From Piedraia hortae CBS 480.64 (lineage: Eukaryota): a stretch of DNA of 41,863 nt. Position 1 is the stretch's first letter. The number at the start of each line of letters is the position of its first letter. The notes beneath the pieces were generated by a model, which saw only the letters and a program-made list of their open reading frames with translations, did not search any database and was not told the DNA's origin. The position numbers and the translations under genes are program-made. The DNA lies in the NCBI GenBank assembly GCA_010093745.1, contig MU006041.1, forward strand, positions 3,854 through 45,716, written 5' to 3'. Positions 2,137 through 25,881 of this stretch are shown in pieces.

Positions 2137-2974
2137 ATGTCAGGCGCGACAACGGGCAGACTCCTTCTCGAGCAAACCCGCAGCAACACGTATTCGCTCC
2201 TCGATGTATGCCCCTCTGCGTGTGTGTGTGCGCGCGTTCTCTGCCAAGATCTAATGTAAACGTGTTAAGCTTGTGCGACCTCTGCAGCCCGGACGGGGAG
2301 CGTCGATTGAGGTCCTCTCTCCCGCCTCAACAGGCCACGGAAAAACTTTTCTACTCTACCACCTCATCGCCCTACTCATTACCGGCCAGCACTTACCTAC
2401 CTTTACAGGGACCATTTTCCCAACCTCTGCACCGGATAAAACGATCATCGTAATAACAGACCACACATTCAACGTCCTGACCCTCGCGGCGCATATATCA
2501 TCTGCCGACCGCGTCCGATGCCTCAAACACCTTCACATCTTCACTCCCCCTCCAAGCGACCATGCCGCCTTACTCGCAACCATCGAGTCCATAAAGGGCT
2601 ATATCTTAGACACTTCGCGCCACGTCTCCGGAGACAGAAATTTGGCGCTCATCGCGCTCGATGTCTCGGCCACGAGCAATGTGGGTCCTATAGTCCTTGC
2701 AAGGCTGCTCAAAATATCCAAAGATCTGGGCGCTGTCGCGCTTTGGACAAGAAGGGAGTACCGCGATGAGGCCGAGGATTCTCTTCCGCAGCCTACGCTG
2801 AGGGTTTGGATCAGAAGGGAGGGTCGCGCTAAGCTGCCGTCAGCGATCAGTGTGGCAGATGCGAAGGCCCTCGGTGCAAGAGGTGAGTTTTTCAAAGTTG
2901 AGAATAGGACGTGGAGGGGGGTATGTGTTATTAAAGATGGTGTCTGGACGACCTTGGAGGGACCGAAGAATTGA
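2137..2974 (+). CDS. Rad51 paralog, XRCC2/Rlp1-like (RecA-type P-loop, no N-terminal HhH domain); 2 exons (2137-2205, 2270-2974), ~257 aa
   Basis: Exon 1 reads MSGATTGRLLLEQTRSNTYSLLD. A phase-0 intron at 2206-2269 (GTATGC...CTAAT...AAG) joins it in frame to the 2273 ORF. Walker A is ASTGHGKT after IEVLS, Walker B is LALIALD, and there is a 'CLKHLHIF' segment typical of Rad51 paralogs. Confidence 0.7.
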
Positions 2975-5547
2975 GATCTTTGTGTTTCAACCTAGGTGGT
3001 ATCGGCTTGTCTTCGCTTGGGGTGCCCTTCCCAGCAGCATGCAGATATTATCGCGTCGATTGCTTGTTCCGAGCAGTATGCAAGAATGTGGAAGGGGTGA
3101 GGAGGCATTTGCAGAGGCGTCAGTAGTGTGGTTGAGTTAAAGTTAGACCTTTATCTGACAGGCAGGGAGATGTGGTGCACCGTGTTCTAATTGAGAGAGC
3201 TGTAGTATATCAACTTCTCAACATTCAAGCTCGGGAGATATATCAAAGCACTGCCCATAAACATCCTACAGACATGAGTGTGACTTTCTCTTCGATTCGG
3301 TGCTACCGTATGCTGTGGTTGCTCTGCTTCCATCAAAGGTCCAGATATCCACCCTTCAAACGAGTTCAGGTATCCTTGATGGGGAGGTTGTCCATGTGAA
3401 TGGAGCACAGGGTGGAGGGGTCTGCTCTTCCATGCACACTATAAATACTTCCCCTATCTCCTTGAAATGCACATTCGCAAGAGGTAACAAACGTCTTTCC
3501 TGGCGATACAAGGTCCCCTGAAAAGATCCCGCAGTGGACGTGTACCCATTATGCGGTCACCATCCCTCTTTGATGCATGATCCGCGTACCGTTAAGGCCA
3601 ACTCATTCTATGTGGATTATGGCCTGCTTGACATGAACCTCTTACGATACCTGATAATCGCAAATCAAGCTGATTGCGTGGGTCACAGTAATGTGATTTT
3701 CGAGAGGTAGGTATGGGGTGGTTATTTCGGCCTCCGTCTCCTTGTTCATTTACTGGGGTGGGTAGAGGGATGCTTTAGCATTCATCCCGTATGGAGCCAA
3801 GGTGATGTCAGGATGACATCCAGTAAATGTAAAACTTCTCTGGGATAGAGGTATCAGACAGTATGGAGGTATTACTGCTGACTTTTTGGCAAAACTGAGG
3901 GAATTCTCAATATCTTTTCGGTTAGATCTTGGATAAAGGAATATTGCTGACAGCAAGCTTGCGGATATTGTTGACTATCGGCTTTAGCAGTTAGCAAAGC
4001 ATTCCTTTCCGCGGCTCGATTGCCGTTTTTGTGATGATGTTTTTGCATCTACTTTTACCTCGGTAAGGTTTTGTGTCGTGAAGGGCAGCATATCGTTGAT
4101 GTAAAGAGAGTCGACTTGCGGGGTTTTGTATAACAGAGTCGTAATTGTTGAGTACTCCCATACGGAACGGGCTGGTGCTAATGCTGGCTTGGGGAGTTGC
4201 AGATATTTCCCTAATCTCATAGCAGGAATCCTCGAGAAGCAATACAACACCAATACCCCTGTCTCGATGTTCAATGGTAATGGCTCGTGTAAGGTGGACT
4301 TAATGTGAGATTGCTTGAGAGCCTGGTTTGGTCGCAACGAAGGAATTGAAGCATAGGAAAAGCATGGCTAGTCCTCACCCGACTGGTTAGACGAATCTTG
4401 GCGAAATATCCCACCTTAGCAAACTTTGAACGTTACCTGTGCTTCGGTGGTATCTCGTTCTCGAACACTTGCAGAATTAACATGGATGGAAAACTTGAGA
4501 CCTAGCTTTATTGTAGAGGCAGGTAAGAGTAGCGATGCCTGAATTGCAACGATACGTGAATGGAGGAGCTGATGGCACGCAAGTCTCGCATAGAAACCCT
4601 ACTACTCTATCTCCCAAACTCATTGTTAACGACGCGTATACACTGTCAACTAATTCACATCGTGCAACACCATGCACTATGTCTCGTACAAAGACGTAAA
4701 AGTAGTGGCACCGTATAGCGTCACTGAGTGAAAGTTGAAATTGCTGCCAATGAACACTGTTTTGGCACGGATCAAATTTACCAAAAAGACAGAGTAGGAT
4801 AAGGTAGGCCTTTTCCACCTCATAGCAAGAAAATAAAAAAAAATAAAAAAAATCATAGGTCTTGTTTCCCATCTCTTACCCCTACTGCCTTCAACATTGC
4901 GATTCGTTGCATCTTACCTGGGGAATTGTGCCAGTAACGTATCCAGGTAAGTTGATGAGGAAGGGACCGAGAGTTTGGATTACCAGCGACACTGTATCTC
5001 CCGAACATGAGTAGACGGAGAAACTTTTCAAAAATGACTATCAGAGAAGAAGCACCCGCGGAGGCGTTAAACTGCAAAGAAGGGAATACCACAGTTTAAC
5101 TAAGCCAACGGTAAAAGAGAGAGAGCCGAGGGAAAAAGAATGAGCTTGGGAAAGTTTCCATTGGGCTGACGTCAGCGACTGATCTTCCGCTGATAGGTAG
5201 TATGATGTGATCAAATTTCAGACTACCGTAAAGATGGCAAACGTGCTTGATAACAAATTTTAACCTCCCCCCTTCCCCTCATCAAAACGACTGCCAACCG
5301 CAAAATCAAGAGCCTGTGAAGTTTTCGTGACGATCTAGACTGTATTTTCCAAGTCCGCTGCCAGTTTTCGAGTAAGCATAAACGAGAAAAGCACAATTCA
5401 TTCTAGAAATGAGTTATCATTTGCAGTTCGACATGATATGATAGGCAAACACGTTTTGCTTAAACATGAAAAAACAAGCACACAGATCATACACAAGAGC
5501 CCAGCTCATTGGATCATCGTTAAGAAGACAGACTCCTCTGCGAGCCC

Positions 5548-6741: not shown

Positions 6742-7223
6742 TATGCCGGGCCGGAGCCGTAACCGTGTTTAGCAAGGAATAAGGCGGAGTCGAGGTGTCG
6801 TCGGTTGAAAGGAAATTGGGTGTCCGACCCGCTTTGTTGGCGTTCCCGCGTGAAACCGGTCACGTTTTGCCCAAAATAAACATCACGTGCGGCGACTTGC
6901 ATCTGCAGCCCAACAGTGCTGACTTGCAGAGTCGAGTCTGGACCAAAAAAGCAATGTCTGAAAGAACAAGATTAGGCAGGTACAAAGAGTGTATCGTGGC
7001 GAGTGGCCTCTTGTTTACCTAACAAAAAGGCCTTGCATCGTCATGAACGCCTCTTCACCTAACCGAGCGAAGAGGACTCGTGGCGCTCATTGCCAATGAG
7101 AGATGCTCCTTTGTGCAGGCAAGGCGTTGCAGTTTGTTGACATGTTCTATGCAGGCTGTAGTACAGCATCTCGTTCTAAAATAGCATATCGTTTATCGAA
7201 CCAACACTTTAGATCATATCTCA

Positions 7224-8273
7224 TCACATATTATCACTGTCATCTTTGAACAATTTCGCCAGGGCTTCGACCGTTGTATTGCCTCCGCTGAGCACAACAC
7301 CGATGTTCCACCCTTTGTCCTTAATCAATTCCCTAAACTCTTGATTAAATAGCACAACAGCCAGCCCCAACGCTGCAGTAGGCTCAACGAAAACCTTTGC
7401 CCTCTCCATCAACAACCGCATGGCCATTTTGATCTCATCCTCCGAGACACTATAGACCCCAGCAAACTTTTTCTTATCCGTCAAAATCTTCCAAGGGATC
7501 TCACCCACAGGCGTCCTTGCCCCATCCGCAATCGTTAGACTATTAACACTCTCCACCCTCTTCCCTTCTCTCAATCCCTTCTCACAATCATTTGCTCCCT
7601 GAAATGCCGGTTCAGCACCAAAACATCTGATCCCGGTTCCCTCCAGTGCCGTACAAACGCCACCCATCATTCCACCCCCCCCAATAGGTGCAATGACCGC
7701 ATCCAAACCCCCAGAGACACTCAATGCCTTAACTTGTTCCTCAAACTCAAGCGCAAGCGTGCCCTGTCCAAGAATGATATCCGGATGATCATAAGGCGGG
7801 ACAAGTGTGGCACCCGTCTTGGCTCTAATCTCCTCAACCAATGCCTCCCTCTCCTCACTATTCGACCCACTAAACGCAATCCGCGCACCAAGCTGTTCCG
7901 TACCCGCAATTTTCGACGGTGCCGAAATGCTCGGCATGACAATATGCGCAGGAACGTTAAAAGTTTTAGCCGCGAGGGCAAGTGCCTGCGCATGATTTCC
8001 CGACGAATGCGTGATCACACCGCCGGAAGCGCAAAGCGCCTCATGTCCGACGTTTGAGAGGAGGTGTGATAATGCATGAAAGGCGCCGCGCGCTTTGAAT
8101 GCGCCAATCTTTTGCGTGTTTTCGCATTTAAAGAGGAGTTTGTTCCCGTTGCTGAGGGCATCGAGGGTTGAGCAGGTTACCACGGGGGTTAGGTGAACAT
8201 ATGGTTTGATGATTTCGTGTGCAGTTTTTACGCTTTCCCGTGTGAGAGGCGGGCAGGTGAATATGTCTGCCAT
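7224..8273 (-). CDS. PLP-dependent serine racemase / threonine dehydratase-like enzyme (fold type II)
   Basis: Motifs FKCENTQKIGAFKARGA (PLP lysine), HSSGNHAQALA, PYDHPDIILGQGT, PIGGGGM and VLSGGN. First ATG at 8273. Confidence 0.9.
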   Translation of the reverse strand: MADIFTCPPLTRESVKTAHEIIKPYVHLTPVVTCSTLDALSNGNKLLFKCENTQKIGAFKARGAFHALSHLLSNVGHEALCASGGVITHSSGNHAQALALAAKTFNVPAHIVMPSISAPSKIAGTEQLGARIAFSGSNSEEREALVEEIRAKTGATLVPPYDHPDIILGQGTLALEFEEQVKALSVSGGLDAVIAPIGGGGMMGGVCTALEGTGIRCFGAEPAFQGANDCEKGLREGKRVESVNSLTIADGARTPVGEIPWKILTDKKKFAGVYSVSEDEIKMAMRLLMERAKVFVEPTAALGLAVVLFNQEFRELIKDKGWNIGVVLSGGNTTVEALAKLFKDDSDNM

Positions 8274-8462
8274 AGCTTTTTTGACATGCGTACACGATTG
8301 GTGGTCGTGCAAGTTCTGCAAAGTTTAAGTCTCAAAAGGGGAAGTCGGTCAAGACGTCAGACCCGGAACTCGGACATTTTTTGAACGTTCGGCCACATTT
8401 AGCTGGAGTGTTGGCGACGATTTTCGCAGCAAGTGTTGTTTTGAGTGTTCGCCTTCCACATA

Positions 8463-9287
8463 ATGACAAACCTTGACTTCAGCGAAGGGGAGAGCAAGAG
8501 ACAAGCACTTCGCCAGCGCGCGTCGGAATATGACTGTCTCCCTTGCCGACTCATGGGTAGCCTTCCCAATTAAGCAAAATTTCCCAATAATATCTCACTA
8601 ACATTCTATTATAATTGTGAGCAGATGTGTACCTGCATACAAATCTCTACGGAAAACTAGTTGACGCGTGAAGTCGAGAGCCGAGCGACGGTTACTAANN
8701 NNNNNNNNTCCTGGTCTTCTTCGGCTCTTTTCTGTGGCTGAGGGCGAGCCCGAACCGCTGGGATGTCGTGAAAGACATGTCCGACCAAGGTCTTGTCTGT
8801 TGCCAGGCTCAGAGCGCCCTGCAAGTCAGCGTTCCATGCCTCGAATGGCGTTCCAGCCTTGAGAATGACAGCTCTTTTTCTTTCGTAGCTCATGGTCTCT
8901 GGAAGCTCCGCTTTCGCTTCGAGACTCAATTTGAATAGCGCTTGTTAGCGGTAGAGCCCGGGCTCATAACCTATTATAATTGTGAGCAGATGTGTACCTG
9001 CATACAAATCTCTACGGAAAACTAGTTGACGCGTGAAGTCGAGAGCCGAGCGACGGTTACTAATAATGCGCGTAATATACCGCATATTCACAACACATTC
9101 CCTAGGCAGCCTCGCATTCACAGGGCTGGGAATATACACGTACGCATCAGGGCGAAAGCAGCTGAACCTACGAGCAGAAGAGATTCGAAGATCGGGGTCG
9201 CGAATTGGGGTGATGCCACGCAGACTGGCCACATTAGGGCTATCAGCTTCACTGGTGGGTATCGGCGTCTATCGACTTATCAACTAA
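8463..9287 (+). CDS. Small DUF4536 / DMAC1-like membrane protein (~91 aa); exons 8463-8556 and 9106-9287, with the intron interrupted by an LTR element
   Basis: Exon 1 is MTNLDFSEGESKRQALRQRASEYDCLPCRLM-G with donor GTAGCC at 8557 (phase 1). Acceptor CCTAG ends at 9105. Exon 2 continues in frame: GSLAFTGLGIYTYASGRKQL...LATLGLSASLVGIGVYRLIN*. The DCxxCR-G plus two-TM pattern is characteristic of DUF4536. Confidence 0.8.
8607..8698 (-). repeat. 3' LTR, partial (remaining 32 bp fall in the N gap)
   Basis: Identical to 8972-9063 and flanked by TSD CATTC at 8602-8606. Confidence 0.85.
8699..8708. other. Scaffold gap (10 N)
   Basis: Run of N; the true size is unknown. Confidence 0.99.
8709..8893 (-). 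CDS. N-terminus of copia Gag(-Pol), truncated by the assembly gap
   Basis: ATG at 8893, shortly after the PBS. MSYERKRAVILKAGTPFEAWNADLQGALSLATDKTLVGHVFHDIP... stays open up to the Ns; the W...L...GHV spacing resembles copia Gag N-termini. Confidence 0.7.
8960..8971 (-). promoter_or_regulatory. Primer-binding site GGTTATGAGCCC (internal tRNAiMet-fragment, Hemivirus/copia-type priming)
   Basis: Lies directly 3' of the 5' LTR on the minus strand. It resembles the Drosophila copia/Ty5-type PBS complementary to the anticodon arm of initiator tRNA-Met. Confidence 0.75.
8972..9095 (-). repeat. 5' LTR, 124 bp (TGTTGTGAA...ATTATAATA on the minus strand)
   Basis: Bounded by the TSD on one side and the PBS on the other; begins TGTTG. 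Confidence 0.85.
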
Positions 9288-9328
9288 ACTACTTTTTTTT
9301 TTTTCCCATTGTAAAGTAATGTCTCATG

Positions 9329-10645
9329 CTAAAGCAGCTCTAGCATAGCCCCCATCTGGAGAGCCGACATTTCCATTTGCTTGGCAGCCTCTTCGGCCTC
9401 CGCGGTTTTGGAAGGTTTGGTCTTGCACTTTTCGCTGCGTGCGACGATGCCTTGTGCAATCGCGTTTTGGAGGCTCCTATTGGCGGTGAGTTTTTGGTCG
9501 GTGTATAGGGCAGTTAACATGCTTTCGACAACAACGGAGACTTTGGCGTTATTAATCGCCTTGGCCGTGTTTGCTGCGTGCGGCGCATAGTGAGCTATGA
9601 AGTCGGATTGTGTGAAATTTACTTGGCCTTCGGGGACGATGAAACCAAGTAGACTGACTACTGTGTCTCTTGCGAGAGTGTATACGTCTTTTGGGGACAA
9701 CCATCTTCGTCTAGCGAGGAGGAAGCGCTGGAAGCTGTCTAGGGGAAGGGGTCGGATGTAATCTGCCATGTCGAGGAAGAAGTCGTCTACGCTTTCCCAT
9801 ATCGTTGTTTCTTGCTCCCTGCAGGCTCTGACCAGCAAAGCTAGGAGCCGCTGTCGAAGCTCTATTGATTTATAATCGCCGAGCGAGAGCGTTTCGTTCG
9901 CCTTGTCATCATGGTGTCCGTTCTGATCGACGCCGTTGCCGTTACTATCTACTTCGGGTAGCTCTGTCTCGTTGAGCCAAATTTCCCCAAACTCCTCCAG
10001 ACTCTTCCGCGAGCCATCAGCAAAGATGGCCCGCAGGATTTGTCTCCTTTCCGTGCTATGTTCTGACTCAGCGGCGCGAACATAATTCTGAATCCCTGCA
10101 AGATCAGACTCCAAAACGTCAAGTATCACTTCCAGCCAGGGAAGCCACACTTCCCACCGTTTACGGTGTTGCACAGAGCAATTGAAAGCCCAACCGACTA
10201 CAGTCCAAAAGTTAGGAGCTCTTTTCCAGAGACTATCGTCTTCAAAGAGGAACAGGGCGTCTTTGACTTCTTCTGCTCTTACACTCCCATGTCTGGTGCG
10301 TGAATTAGATTTGTTTCCTCGTGAGCCGCTGGGGTTGGGTTCGAAGACAAATGCTTCCTTCAACGTTACGCTACCCACGCGATTCAAGACGGCACGTAGG
10401 TACTGCAATGCGAGAGAAGCCCCGTGTTTTTTGTCCTGCGAGTTTGTGCGATTGGTCATTTGCGGGTGAACAGCTAGAGATGCGGCCCAGGCCAGATAAG
10501 TGGGCGGCGGAAGCTGCGCTGGACGGGACGATGCGAGGCCGGAATCAACCGACACTTTGAGGATACTGATTGCATCTGCATAGAGCCCTTCATTTAGCTT
10601 GTTATGTATAGACTCTAGAAGCCGCGTCGGGATCCGTTGTGCCAT
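9329..10645 (-). CDS. Conserved filamentous-fungal hypothetical protein (438 aa, apparently helical)
   Basis: Long ATG-initiated ORF with conserved-looking blocks LPPPTYLAWAASLAVHP, SLWKRAPNFWTVVGWAFNCSVQHRKRWEVWLPWLEVILDVLE and NAKVSVVVESML. Confidence 0.8.
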   Translation of the reverse strand: MAQRIPTRLLESIHNKLNEGLYADAISILKVSVDSGLASSRPAQLPPPTYLAWAASLAVHPQMTNRTNSQDKKHGASLALQYLRAVLNRVGSVTLKEAFVFEPNPSGSRGNKSNSRTRHGSVRAEEVKDALFLFEDDSLWKRAPNFWTVVGWAFNCSVQHRKRWEVWLPWLEVILDVLESDLAGIQNYVRAAESEHSTERRQILRAIFADGSRKSLEEFGEIWLNETELPEVDSNGNGVDQNGHHDDKANETLSLGDYKSIELRQRLLALLVRACREQETTIWESVDDFFLDMADYIRPLPLDSFQRFLLARRRWLSPKDVYTLARDTVVSLLGFIVPEGQVNFTQSDFIAHYAPHAANTAKAINNAKVSVVVESMLTALYTDQKLTANRSLQNAIAQGIVARSEKCKTKPSKTAEAEEAAKQMEMSALQMGAMLELL

Positions 10646-10775: not shown

Positions 10776-11519
10776 ATGCCCAAATTCTTCTGCGATTACT
10801 GCGACGTCTATTTGACGCATGACTCCATGAGCGTGCGCAAAGCGCACAACAGCGGCCGTAACCATTTACGCAACGTAACAGACTACTACCAGCAAATTGG
10901 CCAGGCCAAGGCGCAATCCATTATTGACAGCATCACCAGCAGCTACAGTGCAGAAGGCTACAGCAATCCAATGACGCAAATGTACGCGCCTGGCATGGGG
11001 GATATGGGAATGACACCGGGGATGGTACCGGGGATGGGTCCTGGGATGGATGGCAAGGCTCCACCTTTCATGGGCGGACCATCAATGGGCATGCCTCCTA
11101 TGCCGTTTGGTCGTGGGATGCCACCTTTGCCTCCTGGGTAAGTACTTCCTAACCGTTTATTTGCGTCAAGACTTACGGTTTGCAGGTTCCCAGCACCACC
11201 TAGTGGGTTCCCACCAGGCTTTAATCCGAGCAATTTACCGCCGATGCCTCCTGGAGGTGGAGGTGGAGGTGGTGCCAATATGCCATTTCCGCCTTCAAAT
11301 ATACCGTTCCCGCCAGCGCGAAACGGCCCACCAGCCCCCGCATCTGCGGCGAGTCCAGCGCCTGGTATGCCGCCAGGAACGCCCTTGGCAGGACCGCCGG
11401 GCGTGGGAGGCCCGCCAGCTATGTCAATGCCAGCAATGCCAGCACCACCAGGTGTACCACAAGGAATGCCGCCGGGTATGGGTAATCCACCGGGCACGAA
11501 CAGTGCATCCGGTCGGTAG
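10776..11519 (+). CDS. SNRPC: U1 snRNP protein C; exons 10776-11137 and 11186-11519
   Basis: Matrin-type zinc finger [30 protein letters not shown]. Intron 11138-11185 (GTAAGT...CAG, phase 2) joins in frame to the Pro/Gly/Met-rich tail. Confidence 0.95.
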
Positions 11520-23124: not shown

Positions 23125-25881
23125 CTATTGAAACTCCACCCTCCCGCCGGTATTAGAACCCCGCGAAGCCTCAAGCCTCCTTGCTCTCTCCGCTCTACGT
23201 CGTCTTCTATTATCTGCAAAGGCGGACACGTCCGTTCCCGTGCCCGCCGTGCCCGGTGAACCAGAAAGCCCGCTACCTATGAACGGTGGCGCCGGCGGGC
23301 TCAATATGCCCTGTTGCGAGGGCATGTGTTGCTGCCGCGGACTCGCGTGTTGCGGTGGGAGCGGAGGCATATGAGCCACCTGAGGTGGAGGCAGCGGACC
23401 TCCTTGCGAACCTCCCTGCGTCGGGATGCCCTGTGGAACGTTTGGCTGGACGTTCTGCTGCACATTTGGCGGCGGCAAGTCCAACTCGCTGCCCTGTCTC
23501 ATTGGCGGCGGCCGCGGAACGGCTTGTATCGGCTGCTGGCTGCTTGCTTGGCTTCTCCGTCTCCTACCATGTCTTCCCGAAGGCGCGTCCGACTCCACGT
23601 TACTCTGACTGCCGTCCCCTACGCGCTGGAACGTGACGTGGTCTCCGTCGCGATGCATCCTCACTCGCACGTTGACCGGCAGTTGGGCCGTGCCCACCGC
23701 TGATGCGCTTTCTGCCGTTAGAGGCATGCTGCTGACGTCGCTGCCGCGTCTGTTATGTCGATTGCGCGAAGGTGAAGAGTCTGCCCGTGACGACCGTCTT
23801 CGTCTTTGACGGCCTTGTGCGTCTGTGAGGATGCGGCTAGGGTCGGGTTGGGCGGGTCCCTCGGGCATTTGTACGCTCCCAGGCACGACCGGGTAATCCG
23901 GACGCTGCTGCTGCATAGGTGGGGGACCAGGCGGAGGCGGTGGCAGAGAGTAGTTGCCCTGTCCAGCGTTTGCCGTGTTGGTATATCCACTGGCTGTCGG
24001 GGCACTGGTGTAGCCGCTGGTGGGACCACTGGTATATGCACTGGCAGTACCGGTATAGCCACTGGTAGGTCCGCTGGTAAAAGCGCTCGGGGAACCCGTC
24101 GTATATGCACTGGGATTGGTTTGTCCACTCGTCGGGACAGTGCTCGCCCCCGTGGGCAGCGGTGGGTGGAACGAATTCGGCCGGTTCAGAGCCAATTCAG
24201 GATTGCTTCCTTGGAAACCTGGACCGGGATCCTGAGTTACGCCCGTCATGACTGTGCCGTCAAGGCTCGGTCTCGGACGGGTGGCATCGGACTGCTGAGG
24301 ATAGTGCCTCCCCGTTCTCCGGTTATAAAGTTCCTCCTCCTCCAGCTGCTGCCGCCGCAAGCGATCATCCTTTTGCCATTGCTGACGCTGTCTTCGGTGC
24401 TTGTTCCACTCTCTGAAGCCAGCCACGGCGCCAAAGGTGGCTATGCTCTGACGCAGTGTTGGACCGCCTTCTTCGTCAAAGTAGCTGGATTCTGGGCCCG
24501 GAGATATCATGCTCTCCTCCTCGGCCGGTCCTGGAGGTCGACGCATTGGCGTCTGCGTGGGAGACATTGGGCCCACGTTATTCATCGGTGGCCGCGCATT
24601 TCCAGGAGACATGGGAACTTGGCCCTGTTGAACTCTGGACACATCGCCTTGGCTGACCATGTTGTGCACTCCCCCCGTCGGCGGCTGGTACGGAGTTTCA
24701 TCATATTCGTCTCTTCTTCGACGGTTGAAAAAACTCCGCCATCCGCCCACAGCCGCTGCTCCCGCTCCTGCACCTAGCAACCTTTCCTTCCACGAGTCCC
24801 TGTGTCGTTGGCCATGCTTTTCTCCATCCCAGCTAGGCGTTATATCGCTGCTTATGGACGACGGCAAACGATTCCCTCTGGCGGGCACGCTGCCTGTGCC
24901 ATAAGACACACCGGGTGGCGGGCGGGTCGAGCTGGACGTCACGCCAGAAGGTGGAGGTCTGGTCCGCGGCGGCGGTGTCATGTCAGAGCCTTCCCAATCC
25001 GAGGCCGCATCCCTCCTGTTCCGCCGGTGCTTATACGCCTTGTACGCGCCCAGTGCACCGCCTGCTACCAAAGCATCCCGTCCCCAGTGATGTGAGGATT
25101 CTGGGTGATCAGATGGTCCCGTAAAGTCAGTCCTTGGCCCCGAGCTTGACACATAACTCGAAAAGTCGGACTCGGCGTTGTCGTAGCCGTATCTCAGCGG
25201 TCGCTTTTCATAATAATATCGGTCCAGGCCGAGGTAAAGCAGCAGCAATAGCGCAGACCAAATGGCGAAGAGAATAAACAGCACCTTTGGGCTGCCGTAG
25301 ACCGTCAGGCCCAGCGCAATCTCCACGATACCAAGCAGTGCGATGGCGCGTCCCAGCAGACGATGCAGCCAGACTTTCATCGGCACCCGATTCGGCACTG
25401 CGCCTCGTTTCATCTCTATGCGGCTCATCATCAGTCCGTACAGGAACTGGAACCATATGGCTGCGTACAGCGCGAGGCCGACAACATGATGGGGATTTGT
25501 GAGGCTCCGTTTGGGGCCCACGGCGAACCATCCCAGCACAAACGCGACAGTCGTCAAAAACAGCGTCAGGATCTGGAGATTGATGTGCATCTTCACTGCT
25601 CTCCGGCCCCCCGTGCGCCAGTATTTCGCGCTCCATATGGCCAGCGGCACGATGAACAAGAACACCAGCGTCGCAATGACTCCATGCGCGACAATCAAGC
25701 GGTGATATCCCGGCTGGTTGTGAAATCGGTTGCCCATGCCGTTGTAGCGCATCGTCTTGAAGTTGACGCCGACGAGCGGCGGCAGCAGAAACGTGTCGCG
25801 ATCATGATCCCACGTCCCGTCGCCAATGTGCAGTGTCGGCGAGTCGTACGTACTGCTGCCGGGGGGAGAAAGGTTCGACAT
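23125..25881 (-). CDS. Cytochrome b561-like multi-TM domain protein with a long disordered Pro/Ser/Arg-rich C-terminal tail (918 aa)
   Basis: Five hydrophobic segments with spaced His residues (IVAHGVIA, KMHINLQ, NPHHVVG, WLHRLLGR), as in b561 heme ligation, followed by a ~690-aa low-complexity tail. Confidence 0.75.
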   Translation of the reverse strand: MSNLSPPGSSTYDSPTLHIGDGTWDHDRDTFLLPPLVGVNFKTMRYNGMGNRFHNQPGYHRLIVAHGVIATLVFLFIVPLAIWSAKYWRTGGRRAVKMHINLQILTLFLTTVAFVLGWFAVGPKRSLTNPHHVVGLALYAAIWFQFLYGLMMSRIEMKRGAVPNRVPMKVWLHRLLGRAIALLGIVEIALGLTVYGSPKVLFILFAIWSALLLLLYLGLDRYYYEKRPLRYGYDNAESDFSSYVSSSGPRTDFTGPSDHPESSHHWGRDALVAGGALGAYKAYKHRRNRRDAASDWEGSDMTPPPRTRPPPSGVTSSSTRPPPGVSYGTGSVPARGNRLPSSISSDITPSWDGEKHGQRHRDSWKERLLGAGAGAAAVGGWRSFFNRRRRDEYDETPYQPPTGGVHNMVSQGDVSRVQQGQVPMSPGNARPPMNNVGPMSPTQTPMRRPPGPAEEESMISPGPESSYFDEEGGPTLRQSIATFGAVAGFREWNKHRRQRQQWQKDDRLRRQQLEEEELYNRRTGRHYPQQSDATRPRPSLDGTVMTGVTQDPGPGFQGSNPELALNRPNSFHPPLPTGASTVPTSGQTNPSAYTTGSPSAFTSGPTSGYTGTASAYTSGPTSGYTSAPTASGYTNTANAGQGNYSLPPPPPGPPPMQQQRPDYPVVPGSVQMPEGPAQPDPSRILTDAQGRQRRRRSSRADSSPSRNRHNRRGSDVSSMPLTAESASAVGTAQLPVNVRVRMHRDGDHVTFQRVGDGSQSNVESDAPSGRHGRRRRSQASSQQPIQAVPRPPPMRQGSELDLPPPNVQQNVQPNVPQGIPTQGGSQGGPLPPPQVAHMPPLPPQHASPRQQHMPSQQGILSPPAPPFIGSGLSGSPGTAGTGTDVSAFADNRRRRRAERARRLEASRGSNTGGRVEFQ

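What the first reader, a model, noticed from the sequence alone, without database searches (positions are those of the whole stretch)
8463..9287. Copia element inserted between the branch point and 3' splice site of a hidden DMAC1-like gene, with an LTR-donated substitute branch point
Seen in sequence: removing 8607-9100 (element plus one TSD copy) restores a normal 55-nt intron, GTAGCC...CACTAAC-ATTC-CCTAG, joining two in-frame exons of a 91-aa DUF4536/DMAC1-like protein. The insertion separates the native branch point (8596-8602) from its acceptor (9105). On the host-sense strand the distal LTR carries TACTAAT (9058-9064) followed by an AG-free stretch to the native AG, 42 nt from the branch A. 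The proximal LTR offers cryptic GAG/CAG acceptors (8621, 8624) just after the old branch point, and both lead to a stop at 8669-8671. Established: DMAC1 is a complex I distal membrane-arm assembly factor in mammals. Inference: the LTR could let the whole element be spliced out, making the insertion tolerated, in competition with a truncated product, so the retroelement may act as a splicing switch on a mitochondrial gene.
Basis: partly seen in the sequence, partly recalled or inferred. Interest (0 to 1): 0.8.

Follow-up and report, generated by a model that had tools for sequence, protein, structure and literature searches.

The report
Polymorphic copia insertion in DMAC1-like intron
A jumping gene really does sit inside the only intron of a small mitochondrial gene in this fungal assembly, but sequencing data from the same fungus also hold the gene without the insertion, so the correctly spliced message needs no special rescue by the jumping gene.

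Summary
They are a 5-bp target-site duplication (CATTC), two identical LTR pieces, a 55-nt intron restored when the insert is removed, a 91-aa product of the DMAC1/Dmo2 family (PF15055, 42.4 bits against a cut-off of 27), TACTAAT 42 nt before the native AG, and cryptic AGs leading to a stop at 8669-8671.

Two things were missed. The "element" contains the window's only assembly gap (10 N, 8699-8708), so its true size is unknown; full-length relatives encode polyproteins of about 1500 aa. The gene is also already in NCBI as a partial model of Piedraia hortae CBS 480.64.

Laying two public runs was the key test. An RNA-like contig carries exactly the 8556->9106 junction. A DNA contig from the same organism carries the precise empty site.

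The spliced mRNA is therefore most simply the product of the uninterrupted allele with its ordinary intron. The LTR-donated branch point and the splicing switch are unsupported, though not excluded.

Most likely this is a recent insertion of an abundant Ty1/copia family that is not fixed in the strain. The scan holds notes on copia elements elsewhere in this genome, none on this locus.

The parts
8463..8556 (+). Exon 1 of the DMAC1/Dmo2-like gene (31 codons plus 1 base; contains the Cx2C motif, C25-C28)
   Evidence: Translation. Script. The RNA-like contig covers it up to 8555/8556.
8557..8606 (+). 5' part of the native intron: donor GTAGCC, branch-point-like CACTAAC at 8596-8602, and the left copy of the target-site duplication CATTC at 8602-8606
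   Evidence: The DNA contig of X1 runs through it to 8600 and then continues at 9095.
8607..8698 (-). Visible 92 nt of the element's 3' LTR (element on the minus strand), cut off by the gap. It holds the cryptic host-sense acceptors ending at 8621 and 8624 and the stop at 8669-8671.
   Evidence: 92 of 92 bases identical to the other LTR.
8699..8708 (.). Assembly gap of 10 N, the only one in the window. It hides the rest of the 3' LTR and nearly the whole interior of the element.
   Evidence: Eleven RNA-run contigs carry loose letters before 8709 that continue the gag frame as in P0006.
8709..8893 (-). First 61 codons of the element's gag (ATG at 8893 on the minus strand)
   Evidence: It is 100% identical to the start of P0006, a 160-aa protein from another P. 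hortae contig. P0006 scores 20.5 bits to copia-type gag, below the cut-off of 27. Long relatives are Ty1/copia polyproteins.
8894..8971 (-). 78-nt leader. The 12 nt next to the LTR (8960-8971, GGTTATGAGCCC on the minus strand) look like a primer-binding site for the anticodon stem-loop of initiator tRNA-Met.
   Evidence: Sequence. The likeness to tRNAiMet is recalled, not tested. Ty5-type priming from within the anticodon loop is described in PMC5371799 (passage read). No tRNA gene lies in the window.
8972..9095 (-). Complete 5' LTR, 124 nt, TGTTG...ATAATA on the minus strand. On the host-sense strand it carries TACTAAT at 9058-9064.
   Evidence: Contigs of other copies stop matching at 9095 or 9096 (loose ends).
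9096..9105 (+). Right copy of the target-site duplication CATTC (9096-9100), then the last 5 nt of the native intron, CCTAG
9106..9287 (+). Exon 2 of the DMAC1/Dmo2-like gene, including the stop codon
   Evidence: The RNA-like contig resumes at 9105/9106.

Best explanation
The assembly records a genuine, very recent insertion of a Ty1/copia LTR retrotransposon. The element lies on the minus strand, antisense to the host gene, and its interior is unassembled. It sits in the only intron of a DMAC1/Dmo2-family mitochondrial inner-membrane protein gene of Piedraia hortae, between the branch point and the acceptor.

The insertion is not fixed. The ancestral empty site, with its 55-nt intron, exists as DNA in a near-identical genetic background. 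The correctly spliced mRNA seen in the RNA-like run is most simply made from that empty allele by ordinary splicing.

By inference, the interrupted allele would mostly be spliced from the native donor and branch point to the first AG inside the LTR. That 65- or 68-nt intron gives a 47- or 46-aa product that ends within the first hydrophobic segment and lacks the second, so the allele would be null or strongly reduced.

Shown: the anatomy, the family assignments, the empty-site DNA contig and the spliced RNA contig. Inferred: which allele the mRNA comes from, the fate of the interrupted allele, and that the polymorphism arose by recent transposition in the strain.
For: - The 5-bp duplication and the exact LTR ends lie on both sides within contiguous sequence.
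- The LTRs are identical at 92 of 92 comparable bases, which points to a recent insertion.
- The gag start is identical to another P. hortae copy. The search found 63 relatives at E<=0.001. I scanned 5 of the longer ones (705-1573 aa): all 5 carry gag_pre-integrs, 3 carry RVT_2 and 2 carry rve.
- An X1 DNA contig of 8190 nt joins 8600 to 9095, skipping 494 nt with 6 ambiguous letters. This is the precise empty site.
- An X2 contig of 2817 nt joins 8555 to 9105 with GT..AG ends, which is the exon junction.
- No differing letter was reported in either run over 8300-9500. X1 holds 0.97 of the words of a 10-kb stretch, which indicates the same strain background.
- Single DNA contigs of the element have depths of 2427-3636 against 12.9 for the flank. 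Summed RNA depth reaches 776,580 against 190.8. This fits an abundant, transcribed family (the tool warns that contig depth is a poor measure).
- In the interrupted allele the first AG lies 20 nt after the native branch A.
Against: - The reference assembler chose the interrupted path, so that allele cannot be very rare in the material it was built from.
- Contigs cannot give allele proportions. They also cannot show that no mRNA comes from the interrupted allele.
- I could not see any contig carrying either filled junction. The depth in bins 8546-8586 and 9120-9160 equals that of the single flanking contig alone. This leaves room for an assembly error, or for X1 being a different subculture.
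- The kinds of X1 and X2 (DNA, RNA) are the tool's guesses. They fit a 94.8-kb longest contig in X1 and a GT..AG skip in X2.
Confidence: 0.65

Rival explanations
1. The interrupted allele is transcribed through the antisense element. The whole element is removed as one giant intron using the LTR's TACTAAT (branch A at 9063) with the native AG at 9105. This competes with splicing to the LTR's cryptic AGs, so the insertion is tolerated and acts as a splicing switch.
For: - TACTAAT lies 42 nt from the native AG with no AG between, and TACTAAY occurs only once in the window on both strands.
- The 8556->9106 junction exists in RNA-like contigs.
- Whole copia (ONSEN) insertions in introns are spliced out in Arabidopsis (PMC12112155, abstract and passages read).
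- Introns of 5-10 kb can be removed in Arabidopsis (PMC5575664, title and abstract start seen in the listing only).
Against: - The empty-site allele exists as DNA in the same background, so the junction does not need this route.
- The insert is not 494 nt but of unknown size, probably several kb. The native intron is 55 nt. From my own recall, not a tool result, filamentous-ascomycete introns are mostly under 100 nt and recognised across the intron.
- The native donor, the native branch point and an AG 20 nt downstream remain a complete short intron in the interrupted allele.
Confidence: 0.1
2. Assembly artefact. No nucleus carries the element at this site, and the assembler threaded ends of a high-copy repeat into a locus that is really empty.
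For: - A 10-N gap lies inside the insert.
- The DNA contig shows the empty site, and no filled-junction contig adds depth next to the junctions in either run.
- The Illumina assemblies of that genome set were built with Velvet and/or AllPaths-LG from short inserts. Which class applies to this genome is in a supplementary table I did not open (PMC7082219, passages read).
Against: - Both junctions lie in contiguous sequence, not at the gap.
- Both junctions fall exactly at the LTR termini (TGTTG... and ...ATAATA) and are flanked by a perfect 5-bp duplication. This is the signature of integrase action. A repeat mis-join, which needs long shared words, is not expected to produce it; only 6 nt are shared here.
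Confidence: 0.1
3. The insertion is fixed in the sequenced stock and X1 comes from another stock or an earlier state of the same strain. The gene would then simply be knocked out in the reference stock, and the RNA would come from material without the insertion.
For: - X1 and X2 are coded as different samples and studies, dated 2015 and 2019.
- No filled-junction contig was seen in either run.
Against: - This cannot be told apart from the best explanation with contigs alone. It is a variant of that explanation: polymorphism between stocks and not within one.
- Identity of the flanks shows the same clone.
Confidence: 0.1

Closest known systems
Ty1/copia (Pseudoviridae) LTR retrotransposons, especially those primed from the anticodon stem-loop of initiator tRNA-Met (yeast Ty5)
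   Same: - The target-site duplication is 5 bp and the LTRs start with TG.
- The gag is of copia type. Full-length relatives have gag_pre-integrs and integrase before an RVT_2 reverse transcriptase.
- The 12 nt after the LTR read like the complement of a CAU anticodon loop with its stem. That likeness is recalled. Ty5-type priming is described in PMC5371799.
   Different: - The LTR is short at 124 nt and ends in ...ATAATA, not ...CA.
- The interior is not in the assembly, so protease, integrase and reverse transcriptase of this copy are unseen.
Intronic copia insertions removed with the host intron, such as ONSEN/ATCOPIA78 'intronization' in Arabidopsis (PMC12112155)
   Same: A full-length copia-type element sits inside a host intron, and a correctly joined host mRNA exists in the organism (paper passages).
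   Different: - Here the correct mRNA cannot be assigned to the interrupted allele, because an empty allele is present.
- The host is a fungus whose native intron is 55 nt.
- The insertion lies between the branch point and the acceptor, which leaves a complete short cryptic intron.
Drosophila white-apricot, a copia insertion in white giving a leaky allele
   Same: A copia-type element inserted within a gene gives a leaky allele (PMC3362299, passages read). That the element lies in an intron, and that the allele is leaky because some transcripts escape, are recalled.
   Different: - From recall, the w-a copia is in the sense orientation, and the defect is mainly termination in the LTR.
- Here the element is antisense, and no leaky expression from the interrupted allele has been shown.
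DMAC1 (human TMEM261) / yeast Dmo2 = Dbi1 family, Pfam PF15055
   Same: It is a small protein with a Cx2C motif followed by hydrophobic segments, and it scores above the Pfam cut-off.
   Different: The function is untested here. In yeast the homologue acts on Tim17 disulfide formation and Cox2 stability (PMC11850723 passages; bioRxiv 10.1101/2023.06.12.544600 abstract start). The human protein associates with complex I assembly intermediates (PMC11850723 passage). A complex I role in this fungus is therefore only one possibility.

Membership tests
DMAC1/Dmo2-like (Pfam PF15055) | Match to the family profile above Pfam's gathering score | tested here: met
   P0004, the NCBI partial protein that spans the exon junction and is contained in the spliced product from residue 16, scores 42.4 bits (E 8e-11) against a cut-off of 27. 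Exon 2 alone scores 21.1 bits and exon 1 alone gives no hit.
DMAC1/Dmo2-like (Pfam PF15055) | Conserved Cx2C motif just before the first hydrophobic segment | tested here: met
   C25-x-x-C28. It aligns with the same motif in the Teratosphaeria destructans homologue, at 63% identity over 76 residues with no gap across the junction. The Cx2C as a family feature is taken from the abstract start of bioRxiv 10.1101/2023.06.12.544600.
DMAC1/Dmo2-like (Pfam PF15055) | Two membrane-spanning segments and location in the mitochondrial inner membrane | tested here: inconclusive
   Two hydrophobic stretches, about residues 25-45 and 70-91, appear in a simple Kyte-Doolittle window. Localisation cannot be tested with these tools.
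Ty1/copia LTR retrotransposon | Two LTRs in direct orientation flanked by a 5-bp target-site duplication | tested here: met
   LTR copies at 8607-8698 (cut by the gap) and 8972-9095 are identical at 92 of 92 bases. CATTC lies on both sides.
Ty1/copia LTR retrotransposon | LTR termini TG...CA | tested here: not met
   The LTR starts TGTTG but ends ...ATAATA, with no CA. The 3' boundary is placed using the duplication and the second LTR copy. Departures from TG...CA occur in known elements (recalled), so this weakens the assignment only a little.
Ty1/copia LTR retrotransposon | Copia-type gag | tested here: inconclusive
   P0006, the same family's gag from another locus and 100% identical over the 61 aa present here, scores 20.5 bits to PF14223 Retrotran_gag_2, below the cut-off of 27.
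Ty1/copia LTR retrotransposon | Pol with integrase before an RVT_2-type reverse transcriptase | not testable with these tools
   The interior lies in the gap and no whole genome is held. Indirect support comes from relatives of the gag, of which I scanned 5 of 63 for domains. P0010 and P0012 have gag_pre-integrs at about residue 500 and RVT_2 at about residue 1100. P0047 has rve at 565-657 and RVT_2 from 1065.
Ty1/copia LTR retrotransposon | Primer-binding site next to the 5' LTR complementary to tRNAiMet | tested here: inconclusive
   GGTTATGAGCCC lies directly after the LTR. The likeness to the anticodon stem-loop of tRNAiMet is recalled only. No tRNA gene in the window was available for comparison.
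   The junction exists, and so does an empty-site DNA allele. Contigs cannot link the mRNA to an allele.

The most novel reading that the evidence does not exclude
In nuclei that carry the insertion, the several-kb antisense copia is still removed as one giant intron. The spliceosome would use the TACTAAT that the LTR places 42 nt before the native acceptor. The allele would then be leaky instead of null, and the ratio of full-length to truncated DMAC1/Dmo2-like protein would depend on which branch point wins. This would be a transposon-supplied branch point in a fungus whose introns are normally about 55 nt.
Probability: 0.1. Interest if true: 0.55.

Novelty: new member of a known kind. Interest (0 to 1): 0.27.

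Why it matters
As it stands this is an ordinary event: a recent, unfixed copia insertion in an intron, with the intact allele still present.

Three modest points remain.
- The type-strain assembly of Piedraia hortae carries an insertion allele that another DNA run of the same background lacks. This suggests a retrotransposon family that is still moving.
- Contig depths hint that this family is far more abundant than a 16.95-Mb assembly (PMC7082219) would suggest. The smallest Dothideomycete genome may be undersized by collapsed repeats.
- The locus offers a natural pair of alleles. They could test how a fungal spliceosome treats an insertion placed between branch point and acceptor.

The gene belongs to a family now linked in yeast to disulfide formation in Tim17 and to Cox2 stability. 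Loss of it would probably affect respiration.

Tried and rejected
- **Whole genome.** None is held for this window, so other copies of the LTR and their positions in introns could not be surveyed. The window itself holds no further copy.
- **RNA holders.** No RNA holder is on record as such. X2 is only guessed to be RNA.
- **Truncating junctions.** No junction 8556->8622 or 8556->8625 was listed in X2.
- **Filled junctions.** No contig of X1 or X2 adds depth beside either filled junction (bins 8546-8586 and 9120-9160). Contigs drop rare variants, so neither of these two blanks counts as evidence.
- **Intron in relatives.** The metagenome scan for relatives of the host protein matched 337 pattern stretches, and none was confirmed by tblastn. 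Conservation of the intron in other fungi was therefore not tested.
- **Earlier notes of this scan.** Nothing was found near the locus, by the element's DNA, by its gag or by words. Genome-wide notes on copia elements exist but were not shown to be the same family.
- **tRNA scan.** The window holds 0 tRNA genes, so the primer-binding-site idea stays untested.
- **Exons scanned singly against Pfam.** Exon 1 gave nothing and exon 2 scored below the cut-off. The test passed only with the junction-spanning database protein.
- **Chance origin of the 'duplication'.** Considered and rejected: the match is 93 nt at 100% identity.
- **Gypsy-type element.** Considered and rejected: the relatives scanned carry RVT_2 and gag_pre-integrs.
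- **Supplementary Table 5 of PMC7082219.** This table gives the assembly method per genome. I did not open it, so which Illumina pipeline built this assembly is not known to me.

Full report
**What is in the sequence**

Reading 8100-9600 and the repeat scan confirm a 93-nt perfect direct repeat at 8606-8698 and 8971-9063.

- CATTC lies at 8602-8606 and at 9096-9100.
- The donor is GTAGCC from 8557.
- CACTAAC lies at 8596-8602.
- The acceptor CCTAG ends at 9105.
- Deleting 8607-9100 gives a 55-nt intron.
- The spliced reading frame is 276 nt, 91 aa, without an internal stop.
- TACTAAT lies at 9058-9064, and the only AG up to 9105 is the native one.
- The AGs ending at 8621 and 8624 both lead to TGA at 8669-8671.

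One contig stops 92 nt into an LTR. The next begins at codon 61 of an open frame on the minus strand.

The 494 nt are therefore the two ends of an element whose interior was not assembled.

**The host gene**

The exon 2 peptide is 100% identical to an NCBI protein named 'hypothetical protein K470DRAFT_195703, partial [Piedraia hortae CBS 480.64]' (P0004, 76 aa). That protein spans the junction ...CRLMG|SLAFTG... and is contained in the spliced product from residue 16. The gene is therefore already annotated, as a partial model, with an intron across the element.

P0004 matches Pfam PF15055 (DMAC1_Dmo2) at 42.4 bits against a cut-off of 27. The exons singly do not pass.

It aligns at 63% identity, with no gap across the junction, to a 96-aa protein of Teratosphaeria destructans.

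It has the Cx2C motif at residues 25-28 and two hydrophobic stretches.

On function, the human DMAC1 associates with complex I assembly intermediates. The yeast homologue Dbi1/Dmo2 introduces a disulfide into Tim17 (PMC11850723, passages read) and is needed for Cox2 stability (bioRxiv 10.1101/2023.06.12.544600, abstract start seen). A complex I role in this fungus is one possibility, not a given.

**The element**

The anatomy on the minus strand runs in this order:
- TSD GAATG.
- A 124-nt LTR, TGTTG...ATAATA, at 9095-8972.
- The 12 nt GGTTATGAGCCC.
- The rest of a 78-nt leader.
- A gag ATG at 8893, followed by 61 codons.
- The gap.
- The last 92 nt of the second LTR.
- TSD GAATG.

The gag start is identical to a 160-aa P. 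hortae protein on another contig (P0006). P0006 continues exactly as the loose ends of 11 RNA-run contigs before 8709 predict.

P0006 scores 20.5 bits to copia-type gag, below the cut-off of 27.

A search of 1.84 billion representatives gave 63 relatives at E<=0.001. I scanned 5 of the longer ones (705-1573 aa). All 5 carry gag_pre-integrs, 3 carry RVT_2 and 2 carry rve, with integrase-side domains before reverse transcriptase.

This is the Ty1/copia layout, and a full copy would be several kb long.

The 12 nt after the LTR resemble the complement of the anticodon stem-loop of initiator tRNA-Met. That likeness is recalled. Ty5 primes this way (PMC5371799, passage read). I could not test it, because no tRNA gene lies in the window.

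**The decisive data**

One search for public runs found two holders from the same coded organism:
- X1 is guessed to be DNA, holds 0.97 of the words and has a longest contig of 94.8 kb.
- X2 is guessed to be RNA and holds 0.88 of the words.

Their contigs were laid on 8300-9500.
- X2 has a 2817-nt contig that joins 8555 to 9105. It skips 549 nt with GT..AG ends, read one place to the right. This is exactly the predicted exon junction.
- X1 has an 8190-nt contig that joins 8600 to 9095. It skips 494 nt with 6 letters fitting either side. This is exactly the empty site with one CATTC.
- No differing letter was reported in either run.

The ancestral, uninterrupted gene therefore exists as DNA in the same genetic background. 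LTR retrotransposons do not excise cleanly (established knowledge), so the empty site is the older state and the insertion is new and unfixed.

**What this does to the interpretation**

The 55-nt intron of the empty allele yields the same mRNA.

In the interrupted allele the native donor and branch point are intact, and the first AG lies 20 nt after the branch A. That is a complete 65-nt intron. By inference it should be favoured over an intron of several kb in an organism whose native intron here is 55 nt. Its product stops after 47 residues (46 for the second AG).

The TACTAAT is uncommon. TACTAAY occurs once in 2 x 41,863 positions, and a looser CTRAY with an AG-free run fits 137 of 5063 AGs. 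It was, however, found by looking for it. On the element's own strand it lies in the first third of a very short LTR, where it may serve the element.

**Limits**

- Contigs cannot give allele proportions or prove absence.
- I saw no contig with either filled junction, and none with the truncating junctions. The tool warns that such blanks are not evidence.
- The assembly must have had reads for both filled junctions, because both lie in contiguous sequence at exact LTR ends with a perfect duplication. That argues against a plain mis-join.
- The genome paper says the Illumina assemblies were made with Velvet and/or AllPaths-LG. It gives 16.95 Mb and 7572 genes for this species (PMC7082219, passages read). 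I did not open the per-genome method table.

**Comparison with what is known**

- Whole copia (ONSEN) insertions in Arabidopsis introns are spliced out with the intron (PMC12112155, abstract and passages read).
- White-apricot is a leaky copia allele of Drosophila white (PMC3362299, passages read; further detail is recalled).
The supplied branch point and the fungal setting would be the new points.

**Verdict**

The functional part, a substitute branch point and a splicing switch, is unsupported and made unnecessary by the empty-site allele.

My odds are:
- Unfixed recent insertion with mRNA from the empty allele: 0.65.
- LTR-aided splicing: 0.10.
- Assembly artefact: 0.10.
- Difference between stocks: 0.10.

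Interest is low to moderate.

Noticed in passing
window 8607-9095 (element), as seen in runs X1 and X2: Single DNA contigs of the element have word depths of 2427-3636 against 12.9 for the unique flank. Summed RNA-run depth reaches 776,580 against 190.8. The family looks very abundant and strongly transcribed, so the 16.95-Mb assembly may hide many collapsed copies. The tool warns that contig depth is a poor measure.
   Followed up: partly
window about 7220-10580: One RNA-like contig of 2817 nt runs across three genes on both strands: the ORF at 7224-8273 (minus), the DMAC1-like gene (plus) and the ORF at 9329-10645 (minus). This suggests overlapping transcripts in a compact genome, or some DNA in the run.
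   Followed up: no
window 8871: One X2 contig carries a loose end that, by eye, looks like a sequencing-adapter tail. It is a library artefact, not biology.
   Followed up: no
window 10776-11141 (+): By eye, this ORF begins like the zinc finger of U1 snRNP protein C, followed by a Pro/Gly/Met-rich tail. I did not test it against any library.
   Followed up: no
window 23996-24113: A degenerate direct repeat of three 49-nt copies at 69-71% identity, spaced 45 and 24 nt apart, lies in a GC-rich stretch. It probably encodes a repetitive peptide.
   Followed up: no
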